DNA of 64,000 nucleotides from Myxococcota bacterium (lineage in GTDB: Bacteria > Myxococcota_C > UBA6777): contig JAKLKB010000004.1 in assembly GCA_023150835.1 (NCBI GenBank), forward strand, positions 1 through 64,000, read 5' to 3'. The position numbers were made by a program, and so were the translations under genes. Shown here piece by piece: positions 4,901 to 59,030 of this stretch (position 1 is the first letter of the stretch; every line of letters begins with the position of its first letter). The notes beneath the pieces were generated by a model. The model had not been told where the DNA came from. It saw only the letters and a program-made list of their open reading frames with translations, and ran no database searches.

Positions 4901-7297
4901 TCAATCAAAGACATCGGGCGCAAGGTACACCATCTGTTCTTCCGAACGCTGGGCCTTCCAAGAGATATTGCGGGTGATATGGCCCTTTTTCACGAGGCGG
5001 ATCTGCACCACTTTTCCTTCAGGAACAAGCAGCGGATAGGGCGTCGTCCCCACCAGCTTTTCGTCCAAAAAAACCGACGCTTCCGACGGGTTTGTCTTGA
5101 TCGATAGCCGGTAGAGTTTGCGCAAGACGACGTGCTGTATCTCGGACTTTTTTGCAATCCACGTATAACTGCGCTCCACAAAGCCATCCCGTTTGAGCAC
5201 CACCGCGATCTCTTGGCCTTGCTTGGCTTGCAAGCGCAGCGGTGTCCGCCCTTTTGAGACGCTACCTTCCAACACCTCGGCACCTTGGGGATTGCTGTTT
5301 AAGAGCAGAGAAAACACAAGCTCTTTGGGGGGTTGAGTCGTTCGCCCAAACAGCCACAGGCCAACCAAAACCAACAGCACAAAAGCCCCAGCCAACGCTC
5401 CAAACATCCGCCATTTGCGCCAATCTGAGGCACGGTCACGCGGCGGTGAGGGATCGCCCAGCAGGGCCTCTAAGCGGTCATTGGATTCGCTTGTGGCGTG
5501 TGGGATCTCAGGGCTTGCAAGCTTCAAAAAAGGCGAAGGAGTCGGTGGATCTTCTGGATGCGAGACCTGCCCCAGATTTGTGTGTGATGGGCTGTTCTTT
5601 GCGTGCGATGGGCCTTTTGGGGCAGAAACAGGCGGCTGATTGCGTGATTGCCACGGAGGCATGGGGGTATTGGAGCCATCTTCGGAATAAGCCAACGCAG
5701 GAGAAGAAGCCGCAGGAAACACACCGCTACCCCGACTTAAAGGAGCATTTGGAGAAGATAACGACGGAAAAGGCGGAAGATTCGTAAGAGAAGGCGAAGA
5801 CATCGCCCCCATCGGCGGTAAAGCCCCAATTGCGGGCATCCCCGTTGAAGAGGGCGAGATCCCGCCCGTCGAGGGATTTGCGATCCGAACGGATGGATCG
5901 CTAAACGGGGCAACCACCGAAACGCGAGCCGCAGCAGAAGGCGACGGCAGAGTCACACGCTGCGGCCCCTCTGATGCGGCAGGTGGCGTCGGCGATGGCG
6001 GCGCAAGCACCGATGGAACCCCCGCTTGCTTTTCACCTGCAAAGAAGGGGCTTTTTTCCGAAGATGGCGGAGCCACCGCAGAGGCCGAAGAAGACGGAGC
6101 CACCGCAGAGGCCGAAGAAGACGGAGCCACCGCAGAGGTCGAAGAAGACGGAGCCGTGGTGTTGGAAGGGGGGCTTCCTGCTGCGATGCCGAAAGACAGC
6201 GTGCTTGGTTCAGAAAGCAAAGAAGAAGACGGGAGAGCGGAGGCAGATGACGGAGAAGCGCGTGGGGTTGTGGAAGATGCAGGAAAGGAGGAAGAAAGAT
6301 CGGCAGCAGGGCGACTTTTTTCTGATGCAAATTCGCCGTCTTGTATGGCATTTTGGAGTGCGGCCAAAAAGCTTTGGCCGTCGGGATAGCGATCTTCTCG
6401 ATTTTTGGAAAGCGCCTTCTCAAGGACAGGTTGGAAACGGACGTCTGCGCCCGAGCAGACGATATCGATACGCGGCACACGTTCTTCGAGGTGCGCCATC
6501 GCGGTCGCCATCGGCGATTCTTTCTTAAAGGGCGGAGAGCCCGTGATCATCTGAAACAAGATCACAGCCAGAGAATACAGATCGCAACGGTGATCGATCT
6601 CTTTGCTGCTGCGGATCTGTTCGGGAGACATATACGTCGGTGTACCGAGCGAATGTCCTGTGACAGTGTGACCTTCGTTGACGTTGTCCATCACTTTGGC
6701 GATCCCAAAGTCCACGACTTTTGGGACGATGCCGCGCTCTGTCTCGGCAAGCAGCAAGTTTCCGGGCTTGAGATCGCGGTGGATCACGCGTTGGCTGTGG
6801 GCGTAGTGCATCCCTTCGAGCAACGGCCCGATAATCGGCATAAACAGATCGGGCGTGGTGGGAAAGGTCTGATTGCGCAGCCATTGCGACAACGTCAAGC
6901 CTTCGACCCAATCCATGACAAAGCCCAAAAGGCCCTGCTCTTCGACGAAATCCAACACGCGCACGATATTCGGATGCTGCAAGCTAAACTGGATCTGCGC
7001 TTCCATCCGAAAGCGATATTGCATCACTTCTTCTTTGACAAGATGGCGAAAGATCAGTTTGATGGCGACGGGCCGGTTGAATTGGACGTGCTTGGCTCGA
7101 TACACATAAGCCATTCCCCCCTTCCCAACAGGGTATTCAAGCTGGTACTTGCCGCACAAGATGATCCCGTGAAGCTGTTCGTCATCAAGGTGCGCCAATG
7201 GCGACTCACCCAAAGAAACAGGACGCCCGCAATGGGGACAAGCCTTTGCTGCATCAGAGTGTTCATTGCCACAATCAGGGCAGCGAATCAGCGCCAT
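4901..7297 (-). CDS. Ser/Thr protein kinase with N-terminal zinc ribbon, TM segment and C-terminal PEGA domains
   Basis: Start MALIRCPDCG...CPHCG with GAGGAG RBS. Kinase motifs GKGGMAYV, HRDLKPGN, DFG, GTPTYMSPE; TM segment; two SNPQGAEV/TNPSEASV...GxTP PEGA-like repeats. Confidence 0.93.
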   Translation of the reverse strand: MALIRCPDCGNEHSDAAKACPHCGRPVSLGESPLAHLDDEQLHGIILCGKYQLEYPVGKGGMAYVYRAKHVQFNRPVAIKLIFRHLVKEEVMQYRFRMEAQIQFSLQHPNIVRVLDFVEEQGLLGFVMDWVEGLTLSQWLRNQTFPTTPDLFMPIIGPLLEGMHYAHSQRVIHRDLKPGNLLLAETERGIVPKVVDFGIAKVMDNVNEGHTVTGHSLGTPTYMSPEQIRSSKEIDHRCDLYSLAVILFQMITGSPPFKKESPMATAMAHLEERVPRIDIVCSGADVRFQPVLEKALSKNREDRYPDGQSFLAALQNAIQDGEFASEKSRPAADLSSSFPASSTTPRASPSSASALPSSSLLSEPSTLSFGIAAGSPPSNTTAPSSSTSAVAPSSSASAVAPSSSASAVAPPSSEKSPFFAGEKQAGVPSVLAPPSPTPPAASEGPQRVTLPSPSAAARVSVVAPFSDPSVRIANPSTGGISPSSTGMPAIGALPPMGAMSSPSLTNLPPFPSLSSPNAPLSRGSGVFPAASSPALAYSEDGSNTPMPPWQSRNQPPVSAPKGPSHAKNSPSHTNLGQVSHPEDPPTPSPFLKLASPEIPHATSESNDRLEALLGDPSPPRDRASDWRKWRMFGALAGAFVLLVLVGLWLFGRTTQPPKELVFSLLLNSNPQGAEVLEGSVSKGRTPLRLQAKQGQEIAVVLKRDGFVERSYTWIAKKSEIQHVVLRKLYRLSIKTNPSEASVFLDEKLVGTTPYPLLVPEGKVVQIRLVKKGHITRNISWKAQRSEEQMVYLAPDVFD

Positions 7298-7540
7298 ACT
7301 CGCTCCTCGAAACAGCTTCTCAAGACATCTCTCCGCTCTGGTTTGGCACCTGCGCGCCCACATTTGGCACTCGGACGGGTCTCTCACCCAACAGCTTGAC
7401 CCCATGCCACCAAGATCATCGCCCAACTCGTTGCTCTAGCAAGAAGCCCCCCCCTTGTCAAGCAACCCGCCCTCCCCCTACGATGGGAAGCCTGATCGCC
7501 TTTCCTTGAGAACCTCGGCCCAAACCACGAGAAGACCTCG

Positions 7541-8518
7541 ATGCAAACATACCCCACTCTGCGCCCGCTCGTCTTTTGGCTGGCCTGTTGCTTGACCCCG
7601 CTGCTCGGCTCTGTTGTCCACGCAGACGACGCACGCATCAAGGAGATGAAATACGCTTACAGCGAGGGTTACAATCTCTATCAGCGAAACTCCTTTAAAA
7701 AAGCCATCGCTTATTTCACCCAAGCCCACCGCCTCGCCCCCAACGACGACCGCTATCAACGCTTTCGTGCAGCAGTCGCTTTTTTTCTCGCCCAATGTTA
7801 CGACAAGATCCAACAGCCTCGCATCGCCCGTCGATGGCTGCTGCTCTACCGCAAAAGCAAAGCCGCCGACCCGCGCTTTCGCCAAGAAGCGGATGCCCTC
7901 TGGGAGCGCATCCGCCCTCGCCCCTCCACTCCCCTACGCCCACCCCCTCGCCGCGATATCGCTCTACGCCCACCCCCTCCTGCTCCCAAAGACATCGGCG
8001 AAGAACGCCTCTACGATCTCCCCCCCGGACGCCCTGTGGGCAACTCCCCAAGCCGCGAAGAACTCGAACGCCGCCTCAACAACCCCCTCTACTACAACAC
8101 CACACCGCCCACACCACCGATGCGGATCGCTGCCTACGTCTTCCTCGGCCTCGGTAGTGTCGCTCTTCTTGTGGGTGCCTCCACGCACATCGCCGCTGCC
8201 GCCCAAGACGCCCAAGCCCGAGAACTCTTTGCCAAAGGCTCCCAAGCCTCTGTCTCCGCCGCCGATATCACCGAGCGCCTCCGATCGGCAAGTACCCTCC
8301 AAACCGCAAGCCTTTCCATCTACGGAGCCGCTGTCCTTTTTGCTGCCACAGGTGTCTTGCTGTTTTTTCTCTCCCCAACCGCCCAAACCACCCCATCCAC
8401 CGCCTCTCCTACGCCACCCTCGACCCCAACCACCGTTCCACCTGCCCCAACCACCGCTCCTTCCGTTCCTGCCGCTCCGACAGCCCCCACCAAGGGGTCC
8501 GCTCTCTTTGTTTACTGA
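7541..8518 (+). CDS. Secreted/membrane TPR-containing protein
   Basis: Signal peptide, TPR-like helices (AYSEGYNLY...KAIAYFTQAHRLAP), Pro-rich linker, two C-terminal hydrophobic segments. Confidence 0.75.
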   Translation: MQTYPTLRPLVFWLACCLTPLLGSVVHADDARIKEMKYAYSEGYNLYQRNSFKKAIAYFTQAHRLAPNDDRYQRFRAAVAFFLAQCYDKIQQPRIARRWLLLYRKSKAADPRFRQEADALWERIRPRPSTPLRPPPRRDIALRPPPPAPKDIGEERLYDLPPGRPVGNSPSREELERRLNNPLYYNTTPPTPPMRIAAYVFLGLGSVALLVGASTHIAAAAQDAQARELFAKGSQASVSAADITERLRSASTLQTASLSIYGAAVLFAATGVLLFFLSPTAQTTPSTASPTPPSTPTTVPPAPTTAPSVPAAPTAPTKGSALFVY

Positions 8519-8592
8519 TGCCTACGCAAGACTCCAGTCTCGTGGTGCATGTGTACGCCAACGCCCCCTCTCCTGCGTTCTTTTTCTTTCCG

Positions 8593-8761
8593 CAGAAGTG
8601 ACGCTGTTGAAGAATATTTGTGTGGAGCGCTACCCCACGCCCCGCAAGGGCCTCGGCCCCCTTGGCCCCGATCGGCAGTCGATCCATCGTCCTTCAAATG
8701 AACTGCGCTGCCGCGTGAAAGGCCGCAAACACCGCTTTTTTTGTCAATTGCGCCGTTCCTA
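8593..8761 (+). repeat. MITE-like element family B, decayed copy
   Basis: Core CCCCACGCCCCGCAAGGG...CCCCTTGGCCCCG...AAACACCGCTTTTTTTG, similar to 17712-17868; degenerate termini. Confidence 0.6.
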
Positions 8762-50213: not shown

Positions 50214-51605
50214 ATGAAGTTGCAAGTCTATAAGCAAGGAAAGCTGGTGTCTTTTCAAGGAACCAACACACTCGTTGTCAAAAGCTCCAAAGGCTTTGGT
50301 TGGGGTTGCGCGGGGTGGGTCGCCGCTTGGTTTGTGCCCAGTTTTCTTCAATTCCCTCCTTGGTTGGGAGGGCTTTTTTTCGTTGGGTTGGTCTTTTTTG
50401 CGGTTCGACATCTCATCTCTACAGGCAACCAAGCCTCGCTGCCGATCGTCGAGCACTTGGAACTCGACACCACCGAGCATTTGTTGAGCATCGAAGCGGC
50501 AGTCGGCGAAGACAAACAAGTCTGGGATCTGCCGACGTCTTCTCTTCGCAACGTCCAAATACGCACCTTGGGCTTGGCCACAGGACTGTATGTGGAGTTG
50601 TCGCCAAGCCTCGATCTTGCGTTCGAGATGACTCTTGGGTTTGAAGATTTTGCGGGCATCGAGCCGCTTTCCGTGTACTGCCACATCCAAGGGATCCGAG
50701 AGACCTCCGATCTCGAACACTTCGCCAGTTCGTTGAGCGCGATGCTCGGTTTGAAGATCTTGTTGCTGATGGAGCGTGGGCAAAAAGAAGCCCGATTCTT
50801 TATGGCCAAAGAATATCCCGGAGATCTCGATCCCCTCGAACGGCTCGATAGCATCGAATATCCAAAATGGATCACCGATCGCCTCCTCGGCCTCGAAGAA
50901 ACCCCCTCCTCGATCCAAGAAAACGCCGAATCCGAAGAAGCTTCTTTCTTTGAATCCATCGACGAAAAAGAACAGAAAGAACTCCTTTCCGAAACCAAAA
51001 CCAGAAAACCTCGCAGACTCAGCCCCGCCCAAGACTCGACCCTGCCCTTCCCCGCTCCTCTTGTCCAAGCCGCACCACCTGCGGCCCCCACCCTCTCTTA
51101 CCAACTCCCACCCAAACAAACACCGCCCAGTCCCACAGCCGACACGCCACACCACCTACAAACATCGCCGCCTTCGCCACAAACATCACAATCTTCGCCA
51201 CAAACATCGCAGTCTTCGCCACAAACACCGCACCCTCGCGCCAAACAGTCAAAGCCTACGACCCAAGCAGCACAGCCTTCGACCAAGCCAGCACGAACTT
51301 TGAGCAGACCAGCGCAACCTTCGGCCCTTCCGCAGTCACCCTCAATGGCTCCGCAAGAAGAAGCCTTCCGCCCACCCGCTCCACAGGCATCTCCGATGGC
51401 TCCGCAAGAAGAAGCCTTCCATCCGTCTTCGCCACCCGCTGAGACGTTCTCCCCCACCGCTGCATACGACACTTCGATCAAGGAGTTGCCTTGGTTGACA
51501 GGCGAAAGCAAAGGTCATTGGCCCGAATGGTCGAGTTTTTCATCGTCTCAACAATCCAAACCTGCCCTCTCTTGGCCCACATGGGAAAGTCAAGATCCGA
51601 AATAG
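50214..51605 (+). CDS. Hypothetical membrane protein with Pro/Ser/Gln-rich disordered C-terminus
   Basis: GGAGG RBS; two N-terminal TM segments; low-complexity tail. Confidence 0.7.
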   Translation: MKLQVYKQGKLVSFQGTNTLVVKSSKGFGWGCAGWVAAWFVPSFLQFPPWLGGLFFVGLVFFAVRHLISTGNQASLPIVEHLELDTTEHLLSIEAAVGEDKQVWDLPTSSLRNVQIRTLGLATGLYVELSPSLDLAFEMTLGFEDFAGIEPLSVYCHIQGIRETSDLEHFASSLSAMLGLKILLLMERGQKEARFFMAKEYPGDLDPLERLDSIEYPKWITDRLLGLEETPSSIQENAESEEASFFESIDEKEQKELLSETKTRKPRRLSPAQDSTLPFPAPLVQAAPPAAPTLSYQLPPKQTPPSPTADTPHHLQTSPPSPQTSQSSPQTSQSSPQTPHPRAKQSKPTTQAAQPSTKPARTLSRPAQPSALPQSPSMAPQEEAFRPPAPQASPMAPQEEAFHPSSPPAETFSPTAAYDTSIKELPWLTGESKGHWPEWSSFSSSQQSKPALSWPTWESQDPK

Positions 51606-51683: not shown

Positions 51684-51950
51684 ATACGAAATCTGCCCGT
51701 AGTGTGCGCCAACATAGGTGCAGCCCCCCATAGTGCCTTCCTCCCCCTCGCGGCAGCAGCGAGGCTTTGCGAGCGTCGCAGGGGGCTGGGGGGTGAGGGT
51801 GATACGACAAGACCCCCCTGTCAGATTCCCCCGCTGGATGGGCTTTACAGAGGATGTGTCCGAGTGTTAGCCCCCCCTTTCTGCCCAAGAACAGGGCGTC
51901 TACAGCAGATCTCATCCTCCCTTCGTGTATACTTCTCTCGGATATCGCAT
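51684..51950 (-). repeat. Full-length family A element with nested ~150-bp module
   Basis: Ends ATACGAAATCTGCCC (51684) and GGATATCGCAT (51950); internal module shared with 12716-12870. Confidence 0.8.
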
Positions 51951-51998
51951 CGCAACGAAGCCCACATGCCAAAACAAAAGCAACAAGCCGCGTTGCCT

Positions 51999-52331
51999 TT
52001 AACGAAGTTGCTCCGCTTTCGGATAAGACTCTCCGAGAAAGTCTGCGATCTGACAAGCCAAAGAGAAAGCCACCAACGGACGTTGCGCGATGGGAACGAG
52101 ATAATGGACACGGATCTGGATGCGCCCTGTGCGCGGGACCAAGACCACTTGGTGATGCGAACGAGGGTCTTCGTACACCAACAGCCACGTCTCACGGGTT
52201 TGATCCACAAACCCCGCGTGCAGCAAGCAACGACCGATCCACGAGCAGCTTTCTTCGGACTCACGGGGATGTTCGGGGACACAGCGCCACAATAAAAACT
52301 GCACGCAGCTTGGGTCGCGTTGGATCTGCAT
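51999..52331 (-). CDS. Small hypothetical protein, last gene of the ParA/Roadblock/V4R cluster
   Basis: GAGG upstream of ATG 52331; MQIQRDPSCVQF...HQVVLVPRTGRIQIRVHY; co-directional, about 90 bp after the V4R gene. Confidence 0.6.
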   Translation of the reverse strand: MQIQRDPSCVQFLLWRCVPEHPRESEESCSWIGRCLLHAGFVDQTRETWLLVYEDPRSHHQVVLVPRTGRIQIRVHYLVPIAQRPLVAFSLACQIADFLGESYPKAEQLR

Positions 52332-52420
52332 GGTGAGTACACAACCTCGATATCTCGTCGGGCACCATGTACAAAAAACCCGTGATTGCGGTATTTCAAG
52401 CGACAAAGTCGTTGGCAACG

Positions 52421-53695
52421 CTACTTTCGGATGCGCTCGACGGCGACTTCGCAGTAGTCGTCGCCTTTGGAGACACAATGCGTTTCTTGGAAGCGCCATT
52501 GTGGGTCGCTGTGGAAAAGCGAGCGATAAAAGGCTTGATCAAACGTTGGTTTTTCGCGCCAAGGAACGCGGTGTGCGAGTTGGACGGCTGCGAGTGTGCC
52601 GCCTTGGTGGAGATAGCAACGGCCCGAAGAAGCGAGGCCATGGCGTGTGACGTGGTAGGTGCTTTCGTAGGTTCCGGGGGTGCGGAGGACAAAGTGTTTG
52701 TCTGGCGCAAAGTCTTGGATGGTCCATTGACCAAACCCAAGAGCTCGACCGATCGCACAGCAGCCGATCAAGATCTCCAACGGATCACCTGTCGGCGCAC
52801 CGACCAAGCCCTCCCATTCGGGTGAACGCAAGATCCCGCCAAAGGTATTGAAGCCGCATTGATGGCCCGCTTCGACAAGAAGCCCCTGCATCACATCAAA
52901 GGATTGGGGAGCGGTGCGTTCGATGTTGTAGAGTGCGTTGTAAGAGATCCCGTTGTAATAAGACGCCAGATGAAGGGTCACGAAAACACCGAAACCTTGG
53001 ACCAATCCGCGTTCGTCGCTGTTGATGGTACCAAGAAAGCTCCGTAGCCCCGTTGTGATGGCGCGGATCTGCTCTTCGTGCTTTCCCGAAAAGCTATCCC
53101 CGAGAAGACGCTGCGTTTCGCGCTTTCCGACAGGCCGAGACGGAGGCATCGGTTGTTTGGCCCCTTCGATCTGAAAGCGGCATTGCGGCGCGCCAAGGCT
53201 GACGCATGTTTCTTCCGCAACATCCAGCGTTCCCATCGGCAGATCAAAGGCGATCTCAGTTGCAGCCACCGCGCACCCCGCCGCAACCGCATCCGCCGTA
53301 TGGCGACGACGGACTTTTTCGCCATATTTTTCTTTCCACGTATAACCGTAATGGAGAAAGTCGCCCGTCGCTAAACCGCCCTGCGCTTGGGTATGCAAGC
53401 GAAGGTTTCCGTGCCCCATCGCGGCAAAGATCAGTTCAGCGACTTTGAGTTTTTCGGCGGGCGTATCTGCCCCTGAGCGCGGGACAAGTTGAGCGAGATA
53501 ATGGTAAAAAGCCTCGTGGGCTGTGCGCGTGCGAAGTGCCATCCCTTCGCGTGTGCCAAGCGCGTCGTCGATGGTTTGATCGAGCCACAAGTTGTAATGG
53601 TGGCAGTGATAGACAACAGGCGTGTCGGCAAAAAAAGCGAACGCATGTTCGGGGAGAACAGAGAAGAGTTCTTCTTTCTTAATTTGTACGGTCAT
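52421..53695 (-). CDS. Tandem V4R (4-vinyl reductase/H-NOX/Bet3-like fold) domain protein
   Basis: Two repeats, each with a GxG motif (AMGHGNL, ALGFGQW) and a terminal E-x-x-C-x3-G-x3-C (EETCVSLGAPQCRF, ETHCVSKGDDYCEV); N-terminal HCHHYN. Confidence 0.78.
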   Translation of the reverse strand: MTVQIKKEELFSVLPEHAFAFFADTPVVYHCHHYNLWLDQTIDDALGTREGMALRTRTAHEAFYHYLAQLVPRSGADTPAEKLKVAELIFAAMGHGNLRLHTQAQGGLATGDFLHYGYTWKEKYGEKVRRRHTADAVAAGCAVAATEIAFDLPMGTLDVAEETCVSLGAPQCRFQIEGAKQPMPPSRPVGKRETQRLLGDSFSGKHEEQIRAITTGLRSFLGTINSDERGLVQGFGVFVTLHLASYYNGISYNALYNIERTAPQSFDVMQGLLVEAGHQCGFNTFGGILRSPEWEGLVGAPTGDPLEILIGCCAIGRALGFGQWTIQDFAPDKHFVLRTPGTYESTYHVTRHGLASSGRCYLHQGGTLAAVQLAHRVPWREKPTFDQAFYRSLFHSDPQWRFQETHCVSKGDDYCEVAVERIRK

Positions 53696-53735
53696 GAGCT
53701 TACCTTTGTCAGTCCAGTCTGGGCATCGTGTAAGA

Positions 53736-54335
53736 TTAAACGTTGAGTTGATCAATACCGAGGATGTCACAGACCGCTTCTTCGACCTTGGCAAGCGCCT
53801 GTGGGCTGAGCGAAGCGGGAGCTTCGAGATGTTCCATGGGGATGCCTGTGCGCAAAGCAAGACGCATCATCGAGGCATGTGGATCGGGGGCATAACGCTG
53901 TAAGAATTCGAGGATGCGTGCGGCCCGAGGGCTTTGCTCTGCCTCGCCGTCTACACTCGTTTCTTGGAAGCCTTCGAGTTGAAGTTGAAGTGTTTCGCCG
54001 ATGCGCCGCCCAAACAGACGCGCCATCCCGATCGGAAGGCTGGACTCAAAAGCAAAAACAAGCAAGAAATCTTCGCGTAGTTCGCGCAAAAGCAACAGGC
54101 GATCGCTGGATTCAACGGTGATCTGGAGTTCCGAAGACCACGACCCCATCAGACGGAGCGCATCACGGTGGTTGCGCACAAGCTCGCCAAACATCGCGGC
54201 AAGTTCTTCGGAGGCTTCTTGGAGGACAGGAAGGACATAAGAATCAAAGAGCAAGCAGTCAGGCATCGTGATCACAAAAAGGCCTTGGAGCGCGGGGACG
54301 CCTTCGGCTGCTGCGGGAAGATTGAGGATCTGCAT
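53736..54335 (-). CDS. Roadblock/LC7 (MglB-like) domain protein with small C-terminal helical domain
   Basis: AAGGAG RBS; GLFVITMPDCLLF...EELAAMFGELV...QITVESSDRLLLLREL..DFLLVFAF...IGMARL pattern of the Roadblock fold. Confidence 0.75.
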   Translation of the reverse strand: MQILNLPAAAEGVPALQGLFVITMPDCLLFDSYVLPVLQEASEELAAMFGELVRNHRDALRLMGSWSSELQITVESSDRLLLLRELREDFLLVFAFESSLPIGMARLFGRRIGETLQLQLEGFQETSVDGEAEQSPRAARILEFLQRYAPDPHASMMRLALRTGIPMEHLEAPASLSPQALAKVEEAVCDILGIDQLNV

Positions 54336-54351
54336 CCGTACACTCTCCTTG

Positions 54352-55437
54352 TTAAGCGAAACGGGCGATGGTGTCTTGCAAAGCACCGAGAAAAGGGCAA
54401 AGCGTGATATCTTCGATGGGATCGGGCCGAACAACGCCAAGAGTCATCGGCCCAAGCGGTGTAGTCAACCAAAACAGGCTCAGCGCAAAGTTCGGATCAA
54501 TTTGTAAGCACAGCGAACGCACCGCGAGATGTGCTTGATGTTGTATCGGAAAAGCGGCTGCGATCGATCGGATCTGTGCGTAAAGCATCGGAGCCCAAAG
54601 CAACGCTTCTTCGGGGGCATCGGCTTGTGCCAAAGGGAGTCCTTGTTCGTCGCACAAAAAGGCCATACAAGCCCCTGTGGAAGGCAGCAACCACTCGACA
54701 AAACGCAAGAGAGCCTTCGGCAGATCTTCACTTTCAAGGAATATCGGAGCGTTGCGCTGCGGTGCGGGAGGAGGCATCCAAAGCGGTGCGATCGGAGCAA
54801 GTGGCAAACGCCGAGACACAAAGATATCGTCCTCAACTTGGAGGTTCCAGCGGATCTCGTCAGGTTCGATCGCTTCGAGATCTTCGGCTAGATCGCTGAG
54901 ATAGCCAACAGGTTGGAGCGGTTTGGGTTGTAAGGCGTCAAGGGAGGCAGGTTGCACAACAGCATGGTGCGGTTGATAGGGGGGTGGGGTCTGCTTGATC
55001 TGGCGAAACGGCGCATAATGCGAAGCGATCGATTGCGCACGTTCGAGGGCTTCTTGTTGTTTGTGTTGTTGTATCTTGCTTGAGGAAACAGCCGAAACAG
55101 CGCGGGATGGGGTTTGTGTAGAGAGAGAAACCAAGGAAGCTGCTTGACTGTCGGAAGGCAAGGCAAACGAGAGATCTTCTTGCGAATCAAACGATTCAGC
55201 AGAAACGACCGAAGCGGGCGGAGAATCGGGGAAGCGAGAAGAAAAAGGCGGTGCATAAGACAACACAGGAGGGGCCTGTGTTGTGCGTGTGCGCGTGGGG
55301 GGGTCGGCCTCTTGGAGCAGTTCTTCTTGTACGGGGAGTTGATACAAAGCCTGTTGTGGTCGAGGAGGCGGGACGATCTGCTCAAAAAGAGCGTCAAGGC
55401 GGCTTTGTTCGATCCAGAGGAGTTGAGATTTGATCAT
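54352..55437 (-). CDS. Protein with disordered N-terminus and C-terminal Roadblock-like domain
   Basis: GGAG RBS; C-terminal AFLCDEQGLPLA then helix, three strands and helix; Pro/Ser/Gln-rich N-terminal part. Confidence 0.62.
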   Translation of the reverse strand: MIKSQLLWIEQSRLDALFEQIVPPPRPQQALYQLPVQEELLQEADPPTRTRTTQAPPVLSYAPPFSSRFPDSPPASVVSAESFDSQEDLSFALPSDSQAASLVSLSTQTPSRAVSAVSSSKIQQHKQQEALERAQSIASHYAPFRQIKQTPPPYQPHHAVVQPASLDALQPKPLQPVGYLSDLAEDLEAIEPDEIRWNLQVEDDIFVSRRLPLAPIAPLWMPPPAPQRNAPIFLESEDLPKALLRFVEWLLPSTGACMAFLCDEQGLPLAQADAPEEALLWAPMLYAQIRSIAAAFPIQHQAHLAVRSLCLQIDPNFALSLFWLTTPLGPMTLGVVRPDPIEDITLCPFLGALQDTIARFA

Positions 55438-55463
55438 CGCGAGATCTCCGACACAAGAGCGTT

Positions 55464-56270
55464 TCAATCCACCAAAGGCATACGCTCGCCGTCATAAGCG
55501 TGTTCCAACAGCGAAAGGCGTTCTTCGAGTTCGATGGCGAGTTGCTCAAAAAGCAAAGCAAGCGGCTGAAAGCCCGAGGGCATCAAGCCAAGCGGCGATC
55601 CGACCGCGCTGGCTTCGAGAAAAGCCTGATCGCGTGGGATCAGCGTACGAAACAGAGATTGCGCGGGGAAGCGCTGACGGATCTCATACAGCGCCGCCGA
55701 AGAGATCGCGCTTTCAGCTTGCCACATTGTGACGATCAATCCGGTCAATGCGAGAGGATAATTTTCGGAGCGCAGCCATTGGATCTGTTCGAGCAGTTGA
55801 GGAAAACAACGCAACGCGAGCGGTTCCGCTTGGAGCGGGGCGACCACATGAGAGCTTACCCGCAACGCAGCGAGAGTCAGTTCGTTTAATCCGGCGGGTG
55901 TGTCGAGCAAACAGAGATCATACTCGTCGCGAGCTTGTTCGAGGACTTGTAGCAGCGCTTGTTGTTGGACGATCACACTACGCCAAAGCGCGGAGTTTTG
56001 CCTTGGCAACATCCCGACAGGCAACAGATGCAAACCCGCTTGGCGCGTGACGATACGTGCTCGATCAAGCGGATGGTTGTGCAAGGTCATGCCCACCAAC
56101 CCCGAAGCGCGCTGGAGCTTGGCAGAAAGCGACGCCCCCAACGAGCCTTGGGCATCCATTTCGATCAACAAAGTACGCCATCCTCGGCGTGCGAACGAAA
56201 AGGCGAGATTGAGGGCAAGAGTCGTTTTGCCATCACCACCTTTTGGACTTGCTACAGCCAACGCTCTCAA
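55464..56270 (-). CDS. ParA/MinD/Soj-family ATPase
   Basis: Deviant Walker A KGGDGKTT, LLIEMDAQGSL, YDLCLLDTPAG, PLQAEPLA, IPRD..F.EA...G.P; GAGGAAGG RBS before TTG 56270. Confidence 0.9.
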   Translation of the reverse strand: MRALAVASPKGGDGKTTLALNLAFSFARRGWRTLLIEMDAQGSLGASLSAKLQRASGLVGMTLHNHPLDRARIVTRQAGLHLLPVGMLPRQNSALWRSVIVQQQALLQVLEQARDEYDLCLLDTPAGLNELTLAALRVSSHVVAPLQAEPLALRCFPQLLEQIQWLRSENYPLALTGLIVTMWQAESAISSAALYEIRQRFPAQSLFRTLIPRDQAFLEASAVGSPLGLMPSGFQPLALLFEQLAIELEERLSLLEHAYDGERMPLVD

Positions 56271-56339
56271 ATTTTCCTTCCTCTTCTGCTTGGCGAATGA
56301 AAGACCAACCAAAGATCACAAAACAGTGGTCAATCGGAC

Positions 56340-58775
56340 TTAATCGGTAGGGATGCGTTTTCGCAGCCGTTCGACGTTGTAGAGGGTGCGTGGATCGTCT
56401 GGGCGCAGGAGCAAACATTCTTGGAAGAGCTGTAAGGCTTCTTTGTATTGACGCCGCAGGTAGGTCGTCATCGCTTGTCGGAACATCTCTTCAAAGACGT
56501 CTTCTTCGGCGGCTTGAGAAGGTGGTGTTGCAAGGGGTCCACGAAGCTCAGTGGCTTGGCCGATCGAAGGATGGCTTTCGGAGGTCGAGTTTTGCGCGAC
56601 GGGAGGTTCGTGGACTTGGATCTGTACGCTGGAGGAATAGGCTTCGAGGCTGGCGGGGGTAAAGTTTTCTTGGATGGAAGAAGAAGCAGGAGAGGAGATG
56701 GCGGGAGCGGAATCACGGGAAGTGGAGCCTTGGAGATGATGGAGCGTTTGATCCAAGATCGCCGAGAGTGTTGCTTGGGAGATATCCTGTTGTTCGTTTC
56801 CTCCGATGATATCGAGGATCTCGTTGATCATGGAGGCGGGATCTTCTTGCGTGGTTTCGCGTTCGTCACCGTTGAAAAAAGCGAGGCTCGCACGAAGTTC
56901 TGCCGTTAATCGCTCAGCCGCTTGAGAGATGGTCTGATCAGAGATCAGCATCTTCTCAGGTTTTTTTTCGGAAGATAGAGCAAAAGGAGGGGGAGGCGGG
57001 GGAGGCGGCGCAGGAATGAACGGAGAGGACGAAGCAGGGTCAGATTCAGCGACAGAAAGGATCGGAAACTGGCCTGTGAGGGCTTCCGAAGCAAACGTAT
57101 CGTCTCTGGAGTCACTCACAGGCGGAGGCGGGAGTTTTCCTTTTTCGGACTCGTTTGAAGGAGGGAGATCCTTGCGCAAAGCCGAATCAAGGGCACGAAC
57201 GAGGGCTTCGAGCTTTTTTTGGTTTTCGTCTGAGAGAGGCTGTACTGTTTGGGCAGCGGCGAGTTTTGATTGAGAACGGCTTGCACGCCACGAAGCCGAA
57301 GATGGCGCACTTTCAAGAACAGGGGTGAGTCGTTGTTGAGAGTCGTGACGTGAAGGGGCCGCAGCAAGGCGTTGTTGGGAGTCGTGACGTGAAGGGGCCG
57401 CAGCAAGGCGTTGTTGGGAGTCGTGACGTGAAGGGGCCGCAGCAAGGCGTTGTTGGGAGTCGTGACGTGAAGACGAAGGAACAGCGATACCCCGAGAAGC
57501 AGAAGAAGCAGGACGAGCCAAAGGATTTGCTGCGCGAGAAAGCGGCGATGTCGGGAGATTGTTTTTGGCGCTAGAAGGTTTGGCTTGGTGAGCAAGAGCC
57601 ATCGCCAACGCACGCGCAAGCATCTCGTCGGCCTCTTCGGGGGAGGGCATCGTTGCAGCAGAGTTCGTCGGAGTGGTAGAGTTCGTCGTTGCAGCAGAGG
57701 GCATCGGTGCGGAAAAGGGCGTCGGTGCGGCAGAGGGCGTCGGTGCGGCAGAGGGCGTCGGTGCAGCAGGCGATGCAGGTGTAGGGAGTGAACTCGCGCT
57801 GTTTTCTGCGAGTGGATCTCGGGCAGCGGTGGGAAGAATGGCCGTTCGAGGCGAAGAAAGCGGCTCCGACAGAGGAACGAGAGGTTCAGGAGAAGGCACA
57901 GAGAGGACGTCGCGAGAAAAGGGGGGTTGTGTTGTAGGGCGAGAGGTCAAAGAGGGCGAAGGCTGGGTCACGGTCTGCAAGATGGAGGAAGAGGAAGAGA
58001 GAGGCGGCTGAGTAGGCGGTCTATAGGGGGATTCAGCGAGTGAGGATTCGGGTGATTGAGTAGACGAGGCGTCAGAAAATGGCTTAGGTGCGAAAGAAGG
58101 GCGAAGCTCGGCCTCGGAAAATGCGGGAGGAAGTTCGGAGAGAGGGGATATGTGCGTTTTTTTGGGCTGCAAAGCCTGCATGGATGGGAGTTCGGACGGA
58201 GCAAGACGAGTGGGTCCGATCACCGTGGCCCCTTCTTCGTCGAGAGGCGAGACACTCGCCAGCCACTCCGCAGCGGAACGAGAAAGATGAGAAGGAGCCT
58301 TATGTGGGCTCAAAAAGTCGCTGACTTGGCCTCCTTCGGGGGTATCATCGTACTCCATCGGGAGTTCGAGTTCAGAGGCTTGCCAAGAAGCCCCCACTTC
58401 ACGGAGTCCCTTGGTTCGGACGTCTTCAAGGGGCATTACAGGTGGAGGCGTACGCGGGTGAGGATAAGGTGAACGCGGCGCTCCGCCTCGGTAATCGAGA
58501 GGCGGTCGCCGAGCGGGTTCTTCTTCCTGCCAAGGGGGCGAGGACAACGGCTCCTGCCAACGCTCCTCGCTGAGGGGAGGCTTGGGCGGCAACGCATCGA
58601 TGTGTGCAGAAGAACCAAGCTGCTGAAAATAGGCGCGTGCGTGGGGGTTTTCAGGATCGAGTTGAATCACCATCCCCCAGTAATAGAGGGCCTTTTGTTG
58701 CTCTCCTCGGCTTGCAAAGAAGCGTGCTTGGTGGATGTAAGCATCGATTTGGAGTTCTCGCGTTGATCGGCTCAA
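56340..58775 (-). CDS. Large scaffold-like protein: N-terminal TPR, long Pro/Ser-rich disordered region, C-terminal TPR
   Basis: KALYYWGMVIQLDPENPHARAY and YKEALQLFQECLLLRPDDPRTLYN; internal SRHDSQQRLAAAP x4 and APTPSA repeats. Confidence 0.75.
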   Translation of the reverse strand: MSRSTRELQIDAYIHQARFFASRGEQQKALYYWGMVIQLDPENPHARAYFQQLGSSAHIDALPPKPPLSEERWQEPLSSPPWQEEEPARRPPLDYRGGAPRSPYPHPRTPPPVMPLEDVRTKGLREVGASWQASELELPMEYDDTPEGGQVSDFLSPHKAPSHLSRSAAEWLASVSPLDEEGATVIGPTRLAPSELPSMQALQPKKTHISPLSELPPAFSEAELRPSFAPKPFSDASSTQSPESSLAESPYRPPTQPPLSSSSSILQTVTQPSPSLTSRPTTQPPFSRDVLSVPSPEPLVPLSEPLSSPRTAILPTAARDPLAENSASSLPTPASPAAPTPSAAPTPSAAPTPFSAPMPSAATTNSTTPTNSAATMPSPEEADEMLARALAMALAHQAKPSSAKNNLPTSPLSRAANPLARPASSASRGIAVPSSSRHDSQQRLAAAPSRHDSQQRLAAAPSRHDSQQRLAAAPSRHDSQQRLTPVLESAPSSASWRASRSQSKLAAAQTVQPLSDENQKKLEALVRALDSALRKDLPPSNESEKGKLPPPPVSDSRDDTFASEALTGQFPILSVAESDPASSSPFIPAPPPPPPPPFALSSEKKPEKMLISDQTISQAAERLTAELRASLAFFNGDERETTQEDPASMINEILDIIGGNEQQDISQATLSAILDQTLHHLQGSTSRDSAPAISSPASSSIQENFTPASLEAYSSSVQIQVHEPPVAQNSTSESHPSIGQATELRGPLATPPSQAAEEDVFEEMFRQAMTTYLRRQYKEALQLFQECLLLRPDDPRTLYNVERLRKRIPTD

Positions 58776-59030
58776 GACTGATACCCGCTAACAGCGTTGT
58801 GTGGCGACATGCGCGTTTGTGTTGTGACGACCGAAGTTGTGTAGCCCATCGAAGTATCGCGGCCAATGTCTCGGGGCATCCTACCCTGTCTTGCGCGGGC
58901 TTGCAAGCCTTCACAATTCCCTTACCGAAGGGCAAAACAAGCCGAACGACGCTGGCAGATCTACCCGCTCGATCTCAGAATGCGGTTCCATTTTTGAAAG
59001 GACGGCAGAAGAAAACAAGGAAAGAAAGCC

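What the first reader, a model, noticed from the sequence alone, without database searches (positions are those of the whole stretch)
51999..58775. Candidate undescribed positioning/signalling module: TPR-IDR scaffold + ParA ATPase + two Roadblock proteins + tandem V4R protein, with no small GTPase
Seen: six co-directional genes with gaps of about 15-90 bp. They encode a TPR-(long disordered linker)-TPR protein, a ParA/MinD ATPase (KGGDGKTT), an IDR-Roadblock-like protein, a Roadblock/MglB-like protein, a duplicated V4R protein and a small protein. No parB, minE or chemotaxis genes are nearby. Established: Roadblock proteins regulate small Ras-like GTPases (MglB-MglA polarity in Myxococcus, actinobacterial conservons). 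Orphan ParA/MinD ATPases position cargo with partner activators (PomXYZ, McdAB, ParC/PpfA). V4R belongs to the small-ligand-binding H-NOX/V4R/Bet3 fold group. Inference: a ParA ATPase may take the NTPase slot normally filled by an MglA-like GTPase, the Roadblock pair acting as its regulator, V4R as ligand sensor and the IDR-TPR protein as landmark scaffold. I do not know of a characterised system with this combination.
Basis: partly seen in the sequence, partly recalled or inferred. Interest (0 to 1): 0.82.

Follow-up and report, generated by a model that had tools for sequence, protein, structure and literature searches.

The report
ParA–Roadblock–V4R operon without a GTPase
A conserved six-gene operon of uncultured myxobacteria and acidobacteria joins a ParA-type ATPase to two Roadblock-fold proteins and a double V4R sensor protein with no small GTPase, so Roadblock proteins may here serve a different kind of nucleotide switch; nobody has tested its function.

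Summary
Six co-directional minus-strand genes lie at 51999-58775 with gaps of 16-89 bp: a TPR-IDR-TPR protein, a ParA/MinD ATPase, an IDR-Roadblock protein (Rbl1), a Roadblock-plus-helical-domain protein (Rbl2), a tandem V4R protein and a 110-aa protein.

- **Folds:** AlphaFold2 models of both candidates (pLDDT 85.5 and 90.9) match MglB/Roadblock/LAMTOR structures first.
- **Conservation:** ParA, Rbl1, Rbl2, V4R and the small gene keep this order in 55 of 62 fully assessable loci, from 74 MAG loci labelled mostly Myxococcota and Acidobacteriota.
- **No GTPase:** no MglA-like gene was found in any locus. Canonical mglA-mglB lies elsewhere in this genome.

New points:
- Rbl1 starts with a conserved ~20-residue motif that a controlled complex prediction places on ParA (ipSAE 0.71, best control 0.01).
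- The first gene is modular: TPR, PATAN, receiver or Ser/Thr kinase in front of a constant C-terminal TPR hairpin.

The "landmark scaffold" reading is therefore weak. I read the cassette as an uncharacterised, signal-responsive ParA switch with Roadblock partners. One sentence of an October 2026 preprint notes ParA displacing MglA beside MglB.

The parts
56340..58775 (-). Gene 1: 811-aa protein. One TPR-like hairpin at the N-terminus, about 650 aa of Pro/Ser/Ala-rich disordered sequence with tandem repeats, and a conserved C-terminal TPR hairpin (consensus AYLRRD..A..LFE.C..LRP.D.RV.HNLERLR).
   Evidence: ORF. Sub-threshold TPR hits at both ends. Tandem repeats at 57331-57472 and 57643-57769. 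The C-terminal hairpin is kept in homologous loci. The N-terminal part varies: TPR 31, DUF4388 14, Pkinase 2 and Response_reg 2 of 56 proteins.
55464..56312 (-). Gene 2: ParA/MinD-family ATPase, 282 aa, with the deviant Walker A motif SPKGGDGKTT.
   Evidence: Pfam AAA_31 3.9e-26 and CbiA 6.6e-16, both above cut-off. No NCBIfam equivalog reaches its cut-off. K24, G25, G26, G28, T30, T31, D53 and D137 are invariant and K29 is >=90% conserved in 58 sequences. Walker A is S[QP]KGGVGKTT in 52 of the 62 motifs tallied.
54352..55437 (-). Gene 3 (Rbl1): 361 aa. An N-terminal short motif, a disordered linker and a C-terminal Roadblock domain.
   Evidence: ORF. Alignment with paralogues. No Pfam or NCBIfam hit.
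55363..55437 (-). Rbl1 residues 1-25: a conserved N-terminal motif, M-x(1-5)-S-[LA]-[FSY]-[WL]-[IP]-[DE]-x3-L-x2-L-L. It is the predicted ParA-binding peptide.
   Evidence: The motif was taken into alignment A4 for 47 of 50 loci examined. Complex prediction with a ParA dimer plus ATP gave ipSAE 0.71 against a best control of 0.01, with peptide residues 4-25 at the interface.
54355..54774 (-). Rbl1 residues 222-361: Roadblock/MglB-fold domain.
   Evidence: AlphaFold2 on a 55-sequence alignment gave pLDDT 90.9 and pTM 0.83. The top Foldseek PDB hits are MglB, 3t1s and 1j3w, at E about 2e-5.
53736..54335 (-). Gene 4 (Rbl2): 199 aa. A Roadblock domain (about residues 1-125, invariant MPDCLL) plus a helical C-terminal domain (about 137-199, RYAPDPHA motif) of unknown family.
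   Evidence: 23 homologues, 7 of them named Roadblock/LC7/MglB by JGI. In the profile search of PDB the 8 best of 11 hits are MglB (E 0.004-0.17). AlphaFold2 pLDDT 85.5. The top Foldseek hits are Roadblock, MglB and LAMTOR (TM normalised to target 0.73-0.80). The C-domain gives only weak HTH-like hints. In other genomes it also matches on its own.
52421..53695 (-). Gene 5: tandem V4R protein, 424 aa, with an invariant H30-C31-H33 cluster (H32 >=90% conserved) and invariant C164, C172 and C280.
   Evidence: PF02830 in 45 of 69 orthologues. The N-half gives a weak match to the V4R protein MJ1460, 2osd, at E 0.077. The halves align to each other by hhalign at E 2.1e-4, probability 46%. Atlas features of residues 1-190 point to V4R clusters. 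Invariant residues are listed.
51999..52331 (-). Gene 6: 110-aa protein of unknown family, with conserved C..L.WRC and GH....VP.TGRVQIRVHY motifs.
   Evidence: 41-sequence alignment. Found downstream of V4R in 67 of 70 assessable loci. No Pfam, PDB or Atlas relative was found.
58776..59030 (-). The 255-bp gap upstream of gene 1, the only place for an operon promoter. No sigma-70-like site was found on this strand.
   Evidence: ORF map. The promoter scan found no more than chance.

Best explanation
The six genes form one conserved cassette. It encodes an ATP-driven switch or positioning module of the ParA/MinD type, and its partner proteins are Roadblock-fold proteins rather than ParB/MinE-type partners.

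Shown:
- ParA has all catalytic residues.
- Both middle proteins have Roadblock folds.
- The fifth protein is a duplicated V4R protein with an invariant His/Cys cluster.
- The order ParA-Rbl1-Rbl2-V4R-small is kept across phyla.
- No small GTPase belongs to the cassette.

Predicted by a controlled model: the conserved N-terminal ~20 residues of Rbl1 dock on ParA, as the N-terminal peptides of ParA/MinD partner proteins do.

Inferred:
- Behind a flexible linker, the Roadblock domain of Rbl1 pairs with that of Rbl2, because Roadblock domains work as dimers.
- This pair is the cargo or regulator that the ParA ATP cycle moves or gates.
- The V4R protein senses a small ligand or metal and acts on the Roadblock pair.
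- The first gene's constant C-terminal TPR hairpin plugs a lineage-specific input into the module. That input is TPR, PATAN, receiver or Ser/Thr kinase.
- The output is unknown. Because PATAN and MglB-type proteins are associated with motility and polarity, I guess a polarity or positioning signal.
For: - ParA family and catalytic residues.
- Roadblock folds.
- V4R.
- Conservation among loci found through Rbl2: ParA in 60 of 65, Rbl1 Roadblock domain in 65 of 69, V4R in 72 of 72, small protein in 67 of 70, and all in order in 55 of 62 assessable loci. The same order holds in 6 of 6 further, more divergent loci and in 5 of 5 loci of the window's own phylum.
- No other widely shared neighbour. 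In an all-against-all comparison of 3702 ORFs from 73 loci, the next most common flanking family is a Ser/Thr kinase, in 14 loci.
- No MglA.
- Rbl1 N-terminal motif.
- ParA-peptide model: ipSAE 0.71 (runs 0.64, 0.74, 0.71) against a best control of 0.01. That mark was reached by 58 of 80 solved complexes and 2 of 110 mismatched pairs. The runs share at least 49% of contacts and the partner's pLDDT is at least 53.
- Modular first gene.
- Paralogous copies in one genome carry different inputs. G005 has 3 copies and G001 has 2, and one copy in each carries a kinase.
- Contigs from RNA libraries bridge all five gene junctions.
Against: - Nothing is measured: no binding, ATPase or localisation data exist.
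- The complex pass may reflect likeness to solved ParA/MinD-peptide complexes. My own alignments and a riding ATP lie outside the tool's calibration.
- The Rbl1-Rbl2 pairing was not modelled, and their profiles are not detectably related (hhalign probability 4%).
- ParA is missing next to the core in 5 of 65 assessable loci, so Rbl2-V4R can exist without a neighbouring ParA.
- The TPR hairpin was detected in only 1 of 6 divergent loci.
- The RNA-library contigs cover the flanking genes at similar depth and come from one sample, so transcription is not shown.
- The output and the V4R ligand are guesses.
Confidence: 0.55

Rival explanations
1. MglB-like mechanism. The Rbl1/Rbl2 Roadblock dimer binds ParA directly through its Roadblock platform. 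It acts as an ATPase-activating or exchange factor, exactly as MglB acts on MglA. ParA is then a pure on/off switch and not a positioning ATPase.
For: - Both proteins have MglB-like folds, and MglB structures are the best sequence-profile hits of Rbl2.
- ParA sits where mglA would sit, and no GTPase is present.
- A preprint makes the same inference for some ParA clades (passages read).
Against: - The only contact tested and supported is the N-terminal peptide, not the Roadblock domain. The Roadblock-platform contact was not modelled.
- ParA belongs to the SIMIBI class and has a different surface from Ras-like MglA (established classification, restated in the preprint).
- Neither protein reaches the Pfam Robl_LC7 model.
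Confidence: 0.2
2. The Roadblock pair serves an unlinked small GTPase, for example the genome's MglA or another Ras-like protein. ParA only positions this regulator in the cell. The cassette would then be an accessory of a known GTPase polarity system.
For: - The genome has canonical mglA-mglB on another contig and further Robl_LC7 genes.
- Orphan MglB homologues are common: 328 of 749 in a census, none characterised by 2014 (PMC4316618, passages read).
- PATAN domains, found in 14 of 56 first-gene products, are reported near mglA and mglB genes (same paper).
Against: - No GTPase co-occurs in any of the loci examined.
- The cassette occurs in several copies per genome with their own ParA.
- The distribution of MglA was not compared with that of the cassette.
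Confidence: 0.12
3. Anti-phage or conflict system of the ParA-plus-V4R kind proposed in the 2026 preprint. V4R would sense an infection signal, and ParA would act as effector or switch.
For: The preprint describes predicted immune systems in which ParA is fused or linked to V4R or to profilin/longin-like domains (passages read).
Against: - No effector domain (nuclease, TIR, pore former or similar) appears in any of the six proteins.
- PADLOC gives only a P-loop-limited hit and a weak hit inside the IDR.
- The proteins are 40-55% identical across phyla rather than fast-evolving.
- The inputs are classical signalling domains.
- The neighbours in the window are housekeeping genes.
- The preprint's immune ParA clade ConB2 has Arg in place of the Walker A Lys. 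Here Lys is kept in >=90% of sequences.
Confidence: 0.05
4. Cofactor or metal-centre maturation. The His/Cys-rich V4R protein is a metalloprotein or enzyme, and ParA is its assembly NTPase, as other SIMIBI NTPases are. The Roadblock proteins would act as adaptors.
For: - Invariant H30, C31, H33, C164, C172 and C280 in the V4R protein.
- Zn-binding Cys sites are known in V4R and TRAPPC3 proteins (PMC10933270, passages read).
- The preprint notes ParA clades linked to metal-cluster biogenesis.
Against: - No metalloenzyme client or cofactor-biosynthesis gene is a conserved neighbour.
- Two Roadblock proteins and receiver, kinase or PATAN inputs fit signalling better.
- A structural Zn site is a normal feature of V4R domains.
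Confidence: 0.05

Closest known systems
MglA-MglB polarity module (with MglC, RomR/RomX and RomY) of Myxococcus xanthus and Thermus thermophilus
   Same: Roadblock-fold proteins are encoded beside a P-loop NTPase. MglB structures are the best fold and profile matches for both Roadblock proteins. Two different Roadblock proteins work together, as MglB does with MglC (PMC7949163, search listing only). PATAN-domain proteins are associated (PMC4316618, passages read).
   Different: The NTPase is a ParA/MinD ATPase of the SIMIBI class, not a Ras-like GTPase. Neither Roadblock protein reaches the Pfam Robl_LC7 model. A tandem V4R protein and a 110-aa protein are fixed members. The predicted ParA contact is an N-terminal peptide. 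The true mglA-mglB pair lies elsewhere in the genome.
ParA/MinD systems with dedicated ATPase-activating partners, such as PomXYZ of M. xanthus, as well as ParABS, MinDE and McdAB
   Same: An orphan ParA-family ATPase with intact catalytic residues. Its neighbouring partner has a short conserved N-terminal motif followed by disordered sequence, and that motif is predicted to bind ParA. PomX is described as a ParA/MinD ATPase-activating protein (PMC7993993, title and start of abstract from the search listing). That it acts through an N-terminal peptide is recalled, not read here.
   Different: The partner's body is a Roadblock domain, paired with a second Roadblock protein and a V4R sensor. No ParB, MinE, PomX/Y or McdB homologue is present. 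The cargo is unknown. Whether this ParA binds DNA or membrane was not tested.
'ParA domains displace MglA in MglA-MglB-centred systems' (bioRxiv 10.64898/2026.10.19.760177, Fig. 2B panel 16)
   Same: It makes the same core inference, that a ParA-family NTPase sits beside MglB-like proteins in place of MglA and acts as a switch (passages read).
   Different: It is one sentence plus a figure panel that I could not see, and the supplements are closed. The text read does not link V4R, TPR/PATAN or the small protein to this MglA-displacement context. The preprint assigns its cases to clade PriB1. This ParA shows the PriB1-type Gln after DxD but the PriB2-type Ser at the start of Walker A. I therefore cannot tell whether it is the same cassette.
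Eukaryotic TRAPP and Ragulator platforms, and Asgard Roadblock/TRAPPC3 proteins
   Same: A V4R/Bet3-fold protein is combined with Roadblock/longin-type platform proteins that regulate an NTPase. V4R is structurally related to TRAPPC3 (PMC10933270, passages read). Longin and Roadblock domains are described as platforms for GTPases (PMC3747258, start of abstract from the search listing).
   Different: There is no Rab or Rag GTPase. The platform proteins are Roadblock rather than longin. Contact between V4R and the Roadblock proteins is not shown. In the Asgard archaeon studied, such genes are generally not in operons with GTPases.
Actinobacterial conservon (CvnA-D)
   Same: A multi-gene signalling cassette with a Roadblock protein and a P-loop NTPase, often in several copies per genome (PMC4316618, passages read).
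   Different: No histidine kinase, DUF742 protein or GTPase was found in the cassette. The NTPase is ParA.

Membership tests
ParA/MinD (deviant Walker A) ATPases | Deviant Walker A KGGxGK[ST] with the signature lysine, plus the A' and Walker B aspartates | tested here: met
   SPKGGDGKTT in the window. K24, G25, G26, G28, T30, T31, D53 and D137 are invariant and K29 is >=90% conserved in 58 sequences.
ParA/MinD (deviant Walker A) ATPases | Match to the family's profile models above the curated cut-off | tested here: met
   AAA_31 92.5 bits (cut-off 27) and CbiA 58.9 bits (cut-off 25.4). No NCBIfam equivalog (ParA, MinD, BcsQ and others) reaches its cut-off, so the subfamily is unnamed.
ParA/MinD (deviant Walker A) ATPases | A partner protein that binds or activates through a short peptide | tested here: inconclusive
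   The model supports binding of Rbl1 residues 4-25 to ParA: ipSAE 0.71 against a best control of 0.01, a mark reached by 58 of 80 solved and 2 of 110 mismatched pairs, with contact agreement >=49% and partner pLDDT >=53. This is a prediction only.
ParA/MinD (deviant Walker A) ATPases | ATP-dependent dimerisation and binding to the nucleoid or membrane | not testable with these tools
   Needs biochemistry or imaging.
MglA-MglB module | MglB-type Roadblock fold | tested here: met
   The top Foldseek hits of both models are MglB, Roadblock and LAMTOR. The Rbl2 profile hits MglB chains at E 0.004-0.17.
MglA-MglB module | Match to Pfam Robl_LC7 (PF03259) | tested here: not met
   No hit for Rbl1 or Rbl2. 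The whole-genome PF03259 scan lists other contigs only, not the window's contig C87.
MglA-MglB module | A cognate Ras-like MglA GTPase encoded nearby (within four genes, as PMC4316618 defines coupling) | tested here: not met
   No MglA hit in 74 loci at E <= 1e-3 or in 6 more. The best in the window and 5 related loci is E 0.039. No PF00071 hit on the cassette contigs.
V4R domain proteins | Match to PF02830 and the C-terminal E-x2-C-x3-G-x3-C-x-[FV]-type motif | tested here: met
   The window copy scores 29.9 bits, just under the cut-off of 31. 45 of 69 orthologues match at E <= 0.01, best 1.4e-11. The motif stands at the end of both halves. The N-half gives a weak match to MJ1460.
V4R domain proteins | Small-ligand or metal binding | not testable with these tools
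   Only the invariant His and Cys residues are seen.
TRAPP-like complexes | Bet3-family subunits with longin subunits acting on a Rab GTPase | tested here: not met
   No GTPase is present. The platform proteins match Roadblock chains. V4R-Roadblock contact was not tested.
Conservon (CvnABCD) | Histidine kinase, Roadblock protein, DUF742 protein and GTPase | tested here: not met
   The Pfam scan of the six proteins shows none of HK, DUF742 or GTPase.
ParA-based immune systems (2026 preprint) | A linked effector domain, rapid divergence and, for clade ConB2, Arg in place of the Walker A Lys | tested here: not met
   No effector domain. No PADLOC system hit. Lys is kept. Identity across phyla is 40-55%.

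The most novel reading that the evidence does not exclude
The Roadblock pair and the tandem V4R (Bet3-fold) protein form one platform, a bacterial counterpart of the longin/Roadblock-plus-Bet3 architecture of TRAPP and Ragulator. This platform regulates whichever nucleotide switch is attached to it, here a SIMIBI ATPase instead of a Ras-like GTPase. If so, the Roadblock-V4R partnership is older than eukaryotic trafficking GEFs and does not depend on the NTPase class. Unchecked notes of this scan report Roadblock-V4R pairs with KaiC in archaea and with MglA elsewhere. A small ligand sensed by V4R would then set the state of a ParA-driven polarity or positioning system.
Probability: 0.15. Interest if true: 0.85.

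Novelty: new variant of a known kind. Interest (0 to 1): 0.6.

Why it matters
Roadblock/MglB proteins are known as regulators of small Ras-like GTPases, from bacterial polarity to Ragulator. ParA/MinD ATPases are known to work with ParB-, MinE- or PomX-type partners. This cassette joins the two worlds.

It is conserved, and it occurs in about one in thirteen sampled genomes of a myxobacterial class: 31 of 401, counting the centre genome that was chosen because it has the cassette. It also occurs in genomes labelled Acidobacteriota.

If the predicted peptide contact is real, the cassette gives a concrete and testable case of a Roadblock protein coupled to a SIMIBI ATPase. It would also give a first function for some of the many orphan MglB homologues (328 of 749 in the 2014 census). 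Finally, it would be a bacterial setting in which to study how V4R/Bet3-fold and Roadblock-fold proteins cooperate.

Tried and rejected
- **Direct family scans.** Pfam and NCBIfam name neither Roadblock protein nor the small protein.
- **PDB profile searches.** They gave nothing significant for the Rbl1 Roadblock domain or the small protein. The Atlas search for the small protein scored <= 0.76, which is only a lead.
- **Rbl1 against Rbl2.** hhalign of the two profiles was not significant (probability 4%), so a recent duplication is not supported.
- **Rbl2 C-terminal domain.** Only weak hits (LPD22 E 0.0016; IclR and MarR HTH E about 0.2). It is left unassigned.
- **Promoters and terminators.** The scan found no more than chance: 1 promoter-like site against 2.3 expected, and 12 terminator-like sites against 8.9.
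- **Expression.** Contigs of four RNA-library runs (one sample, one study) cover the operon and bridge all junctions. They cover the flanks alike, and such libraries can hold DNA, so transcription and co-transcription are not shown.
- **ParA-less loci.** ORF listings are swamped by high-GC shadow ORFs and did not show what replaces ParA.
- **Placing ParA in PriB1 or PriB2.** The two motifs named in the preprint give a mixed result.
- **Defence reading.** Rejected; see the rival explanations.
- **Earlier notes of this scan.** Look-ups by place and by sequence returned nothing.

Full report
**1. What is in the sequence**

The region 51999-58775 holds six genes on the minus strand:
- a TPR/IDR protein (56340-58775, 811 aa);
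- a ParA/MinD ATPase (55464-56312, 282 aa);
- a protein with a long disordered stretch, here called Rbl1 (54352-55437, 361 aa);
- a 199-aa protein, Rbl2 (53736-54335);
- a 424-aa protein (52421-53695);
- a 110-aa protein (51999-52331).

The gaps are 27, 26, 16, 40 and 89 bp. The mechanical ORF list gives 166 aa for the last gene, but its orthologues start at the Met that gives 110 aa.

Upstream lies a 255-bp gap and then a DUF4336 gene. Downstream, a convergent gene ends at 51605. The other neighbours scanned are housekeeping types: Glu/Gln-tRNA synthetase, sulfatase, amidohydrolase and M3 peptidase.

**2. The individual proteins**

*ParA.* It is clear-cut: AAA_31 at 3.9e-26 and CbiA at 6.6e-16, both above cut-off. 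No NCBIfam equivalog reaches its cut-off, so it is an unnamed ParA branch. In an alignment of 58 cassette ParAs the Walker A signature Lys and Gly residues, D53 and D137 are invariant, and the P-loop Lys is >=90% conserved. Walker A reads S[QP]KGGVGKTT in 52 of the 62 motifs tallied. Most members should hydrolyse ATP.

*Rbl2.*
- It has 23 homologues in the large protein collection, 7 of them named 'Roadblock/LC7/MglB' by JGI.
- Its profile finds MglB chains as the 8 best of 11 PDB hits, at E 0.004-0.17.
- The AlphaFold2 model (23-sequence alignment, pLDDT 85.5) shows the alpha-beta-beta-alpha-beta-beta-beta-alpha Roadblock order, followed by a linker and four helices.
- Foldseek against PDB returns Asgard Roadblock, Streptomyces Roadblock/LC7, MglB, MglC and LAMTOR chains, with probability 1.00 and TM normalised to the target of 0.63-0.80.
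- The C-terminal helical domain (about residues 137-199, RYAPDPHA motif) has no family. There are only weak HTH-like hints.

*Rbl1.*
- The last 140 residues were modelled with 55 sequences: the window, a hand-picked 52 of the loci that have the domain, and two paralogues. The model has pLDDT 90.9 and pTM 0.83.
- Its best Foldseek hits are MglB (3t1s, 1j3w), followed by Roadblock, Rag C-terminal domains and LAMTOR.
- Sequence profiles alone do not see this, and Rbl1 and Rbl2 are not detectably related to each other.

*V4R protein.*
- In the window copy it matches PF02830 at its C-terminal end at 29.9 bits, just below the cut-off. 45 of 69 orthologues match at E <= 0.01.
- The N-half aligns weakly to the V4R protein MJ1460 (E 0.077). 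Its language-model features point to V4R clusters.
- The two halves align to each other in register (hhalign E 2.1e-4, probability 46%).
- Each half ends in the Cys-containing V4R motif. H30, C31, H33, C164, C172 and C280 are invariant.

*Small protein.* It is conserved (C..L.WRC and TGRVQIRVHY motifs) and has no detectable relatives.

*TPR protein.* In this copy it has one sub-threshold TPR hairpin at each end. Between them lie about 650 residues of low-complexity sequence with tandem repeats.

**3. Conservation**

*The window's own phylum.* The window's genome (G000, 7.56 Mb, 93% complete) belongs to a GTDB phylum with only 6 genomes held, and 4 of the 6 have Rbl2. Two of them have several copies: G005 has 3 and G001 has 2. 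In all 5 fetched loci the order is first gene-ParA-Rbl1-Rbl2-V4R.

*Genome-wide scan.* A pattern scan of one genome per species found 74 loci. All 74 record titles are MAGs. Most are labelled Polyangiaceae, Kofleriaceae, Sandaracinaceae, Nannocystaceae or other Myxococcota. About ten are labelled Acidobacteriota or Thermoanaerobaculia, and single ones Bdellovibrionales and Methyloprofundus. MAG labels can be wrong.

*Counts with profile HMMs of my alignments, conditional on Rbl2, counting only loci with enough flanking DNA:*
- ParA upstream in 60 of 65;
- the Rbl1 Roadblock domain in 65 of 69;
- V4R downstream in 72 of 72;
- the small gene in 67 of 70;
- all in order in 55 of 62.

*Variants.* ParA is missing in L046, L049, L057, L096 and L101. 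In six loci, mostly with acidobacterial labels, the TPR-hairpin gene lies after the small gene instead of first.

*Other neighbours.* An all-against-all comparison of 3702 ORFs of at least 110 aa from 73 loci found no other widely shared neighbour. After the cassette genes and ORFs overlapping them on the opposite strand, the commonest family is a Ser/Thr kinase, in 14 loci, and then an unknown protein, in 10.

*Prevalence.* In a sample of 401 genomes of the class of one carrier, 31 have an Rbl2 match at E <= 1e-10. That count includes the centre genome, which was chosen because it has the cassette. Six loci taken from that sample, including weak or split matches and two on multi-megabase contigs, all show ParA-Rbl1-Rbl2-V4R-small. 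The TPR hairpin was detected in only one of them.

**4. No small GTPase**

- The genome's own MglA (195 aa) and MglB (156 aa) lie together on another contig.
- With these as queries there is no hit at E <= 1e-3 in the 74 loci or in the six extra loci. The window and five related loci give nothing better than E 0.039.
- A Pfam Ras scan of four genomes of the phylum hits other contigs only.
- The clustering in section 3 would also have shown any conserved GTPase gene.

**5. New features bearing on mechanism**

(a) *Rbl1 N-terminal motif.* Rbl1 begins with a conserved motif, M-x(1-5)-S-[LA]-[FSY]-[WL]-[IP]-[DE]-x3-L-x2-L-L, directly at the N-terminus. A Pro/Ala-rich linker of variable length follows.
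- The motif was taken into the alignment for 47 of 50 loci examined. Of the other three, two show it without an upstream Met and one has a variant.
- A short conserved N-terminal peptide on a disordered tether is how partner proteins of ParA/MinD ATPases commonly engage them. This rests on general knowledge of ParB, MinE and PomX. For PomX I saw only the listing of PMC7993993.
- The result was ipSAE 0.71 (runs 0.64, 0.74, 0.71) against 0.01 for the best of three controls.
- That mark was reached by 58 of 80 solved complexes and 2 of 110 mismatched pairs. The runs share at least 49% of contacts and the partner's pLDDT is at least 53.
- The interface covers peptide residues 4-25 and ParA residues 164-191, 206-219 and 265 of one copy.
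- The tool warns that its counts hold only roughly with own alignments and a riding ligand, and that a pass can reflect likeness to solved complexes.

(b) *Modular first gene.* I scanned 56 proteins that end in the conserved hairpin. I left out two 5'-truncated rows, one 28-aa fragment, one near-duplicate and two minus-strand hits. Of the 56, TPR_2 matches 31, DUF4388 (PATAN) 14, a protein kinase domain 2 and a receiver domain 2. The median length is 312 aa, against 811 aa here, so the long IDR is a local elaboration. The constant part is the C-terminal hairpin.

(c) *Rbl2 C-terminal domain.* It also matches on its own in other genomes.

**6. Reading**

The best-supported view is a signal-responsive ParA module whose partner is a Roadblock protein.
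- Shown: the families and folds, the conserved order, and the absence of a GTPase.
- Predicted: the contact between ParA and the Rbl1 peptide.
- Inferred: an Rbl1-Rbl2 Roadblock heterodimer, V4R as ligand or metal sensor acting on it, the first gene as a swappable input or adaptor, and a polarity or positioning output.

The output guess rests on reported gene-context links of PATAN and MglB-type proteins (PMC4316618, passages read).

The rivals are:
- an MglB-like platform mechanism;
- service to an unlinked GTPase;
- a defence system of the kind proposed in the 2026 preprint;
- metal-centre maturation.

The defence reading fits poorly. There is no effector and no PADLOC system hit, the Walker A Lys is kept, divergence is slow, the inputs are classical signalling domains and the neighbours are housekeeping genes.

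**7. Literature**

Four full-text searches found no paper that describes a ParA-Roadblock-V4R operon.

[quoted passage not shown] 2B). The figure and supplements were not visible to me, and they may show this very cassette.

The other sources I used:
- PMC4316618 (passages read) counts 328 orphan MglB homologues and says that none had been characterised.
- PMC10933270 (passages read) documents the structural kinship of V4R and TRAPPC3. It also says that in the Asgard strain studied such genes are generally not in operons with GTPases.

Two earlier notes of this scan describe the same kind of operon in other genomes. Others report Roadblock-V4R pairs with KaiC or MglA. These are unchecked AI notes and I use them only as leads.

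**8. Expression**

Near-identical DNA is held by 20 of 24 listed runs from 7 studies, among them the possible source sample. These are mostly activated-sludge and wastewater metagenomes.

Contigs from four RNA-library runs (one sample, one study) bridge every gene junction. Examples are 53455-56246, 51754-54270 and 55351-56830. The flanks are covered at similar depth, so this does not show transcription.

**9. Verdict**

The cassette is a new variant of known kinds, combining a ParA/MinD partner system with Roadblock NTPase regulators. It is conserved and uncharacterised, and its core idea has been touched on in one sentence of a recent preprint. Interest 0.6.

Noticed in passing
window 51734-51783 (intergenic, between the convergent ends of the small gene and the gene ending at 51605): A dispersed repeat of about 50 bp. 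The 86-base query around it matches 31 other places in the genome, many at 98-100% identity over 50 bases. In RNA-library contigs it shows a depth spike (about 50-150 against about 10-20) with many loose ends. It looks like a REP/MITE-like element.
   Followed up: partly
window 57331-57472 and 57643-57769: Tandem DNA repeats inside the disordered part of the first gene. One has a 39-bp unit x 3.6 copies at 99% identity and encodes SRHDSQQRLAAAP four times. The other has an 18-bp unit x 7.1 copies. The near-perfect 39-bp array suggests recent expansion.
   Followed up: no
L035 (G005:C108) 6695-8518 and L085 (G001:C17) 6715-8619: In paralogous copies of the cassette the first gene encodes a Ser/Thr protein kinase domain (Pkinase 3.5e-54 and 6.4e-44) in front of the conserved TPR hairpin. 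The ParAs of these two copies have odd Walker A motifs, KGGVGRTT and KGGSGSTT, which lack the P-loop Lys.
   Followed up: partly
L010 (G005:C66) about 7832-8619: The ParA of this cassette copy matches in two tblastn pieces (7832-8032 and 8041-8619), and the longest ORF there starts only at 8008. The gene may be frameshifted or decaying.
   Followed up: no
L049 6858-10004: One open frame of about 1040 aa ends in the Rbl1 Roadblock domain, and no ParA gene was detected upstream. This may be a fused or rearranged variant, or a high-GC artefact of ORF calling.
   Followed up: no
window 50214-51605 (+): A 463-aa protein without a Pfam match. It has N-terminal hydrophobic segments and a long Pro/Ser/Gln/Thr-rich repetitive C-terminal half (SPQTSQS repeats). 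It is convergent with the cassette.
   Followed up: no
L058 4696-5565, and the equivalent gaps in L062, L068 and L078: In Sandaracinaceae-type and related loci an extra gene lies between the TPR-hairpin gene and parA. In L058 it has a weak DUF4388/PATAN match (E 8e-4).
   Followed up: no
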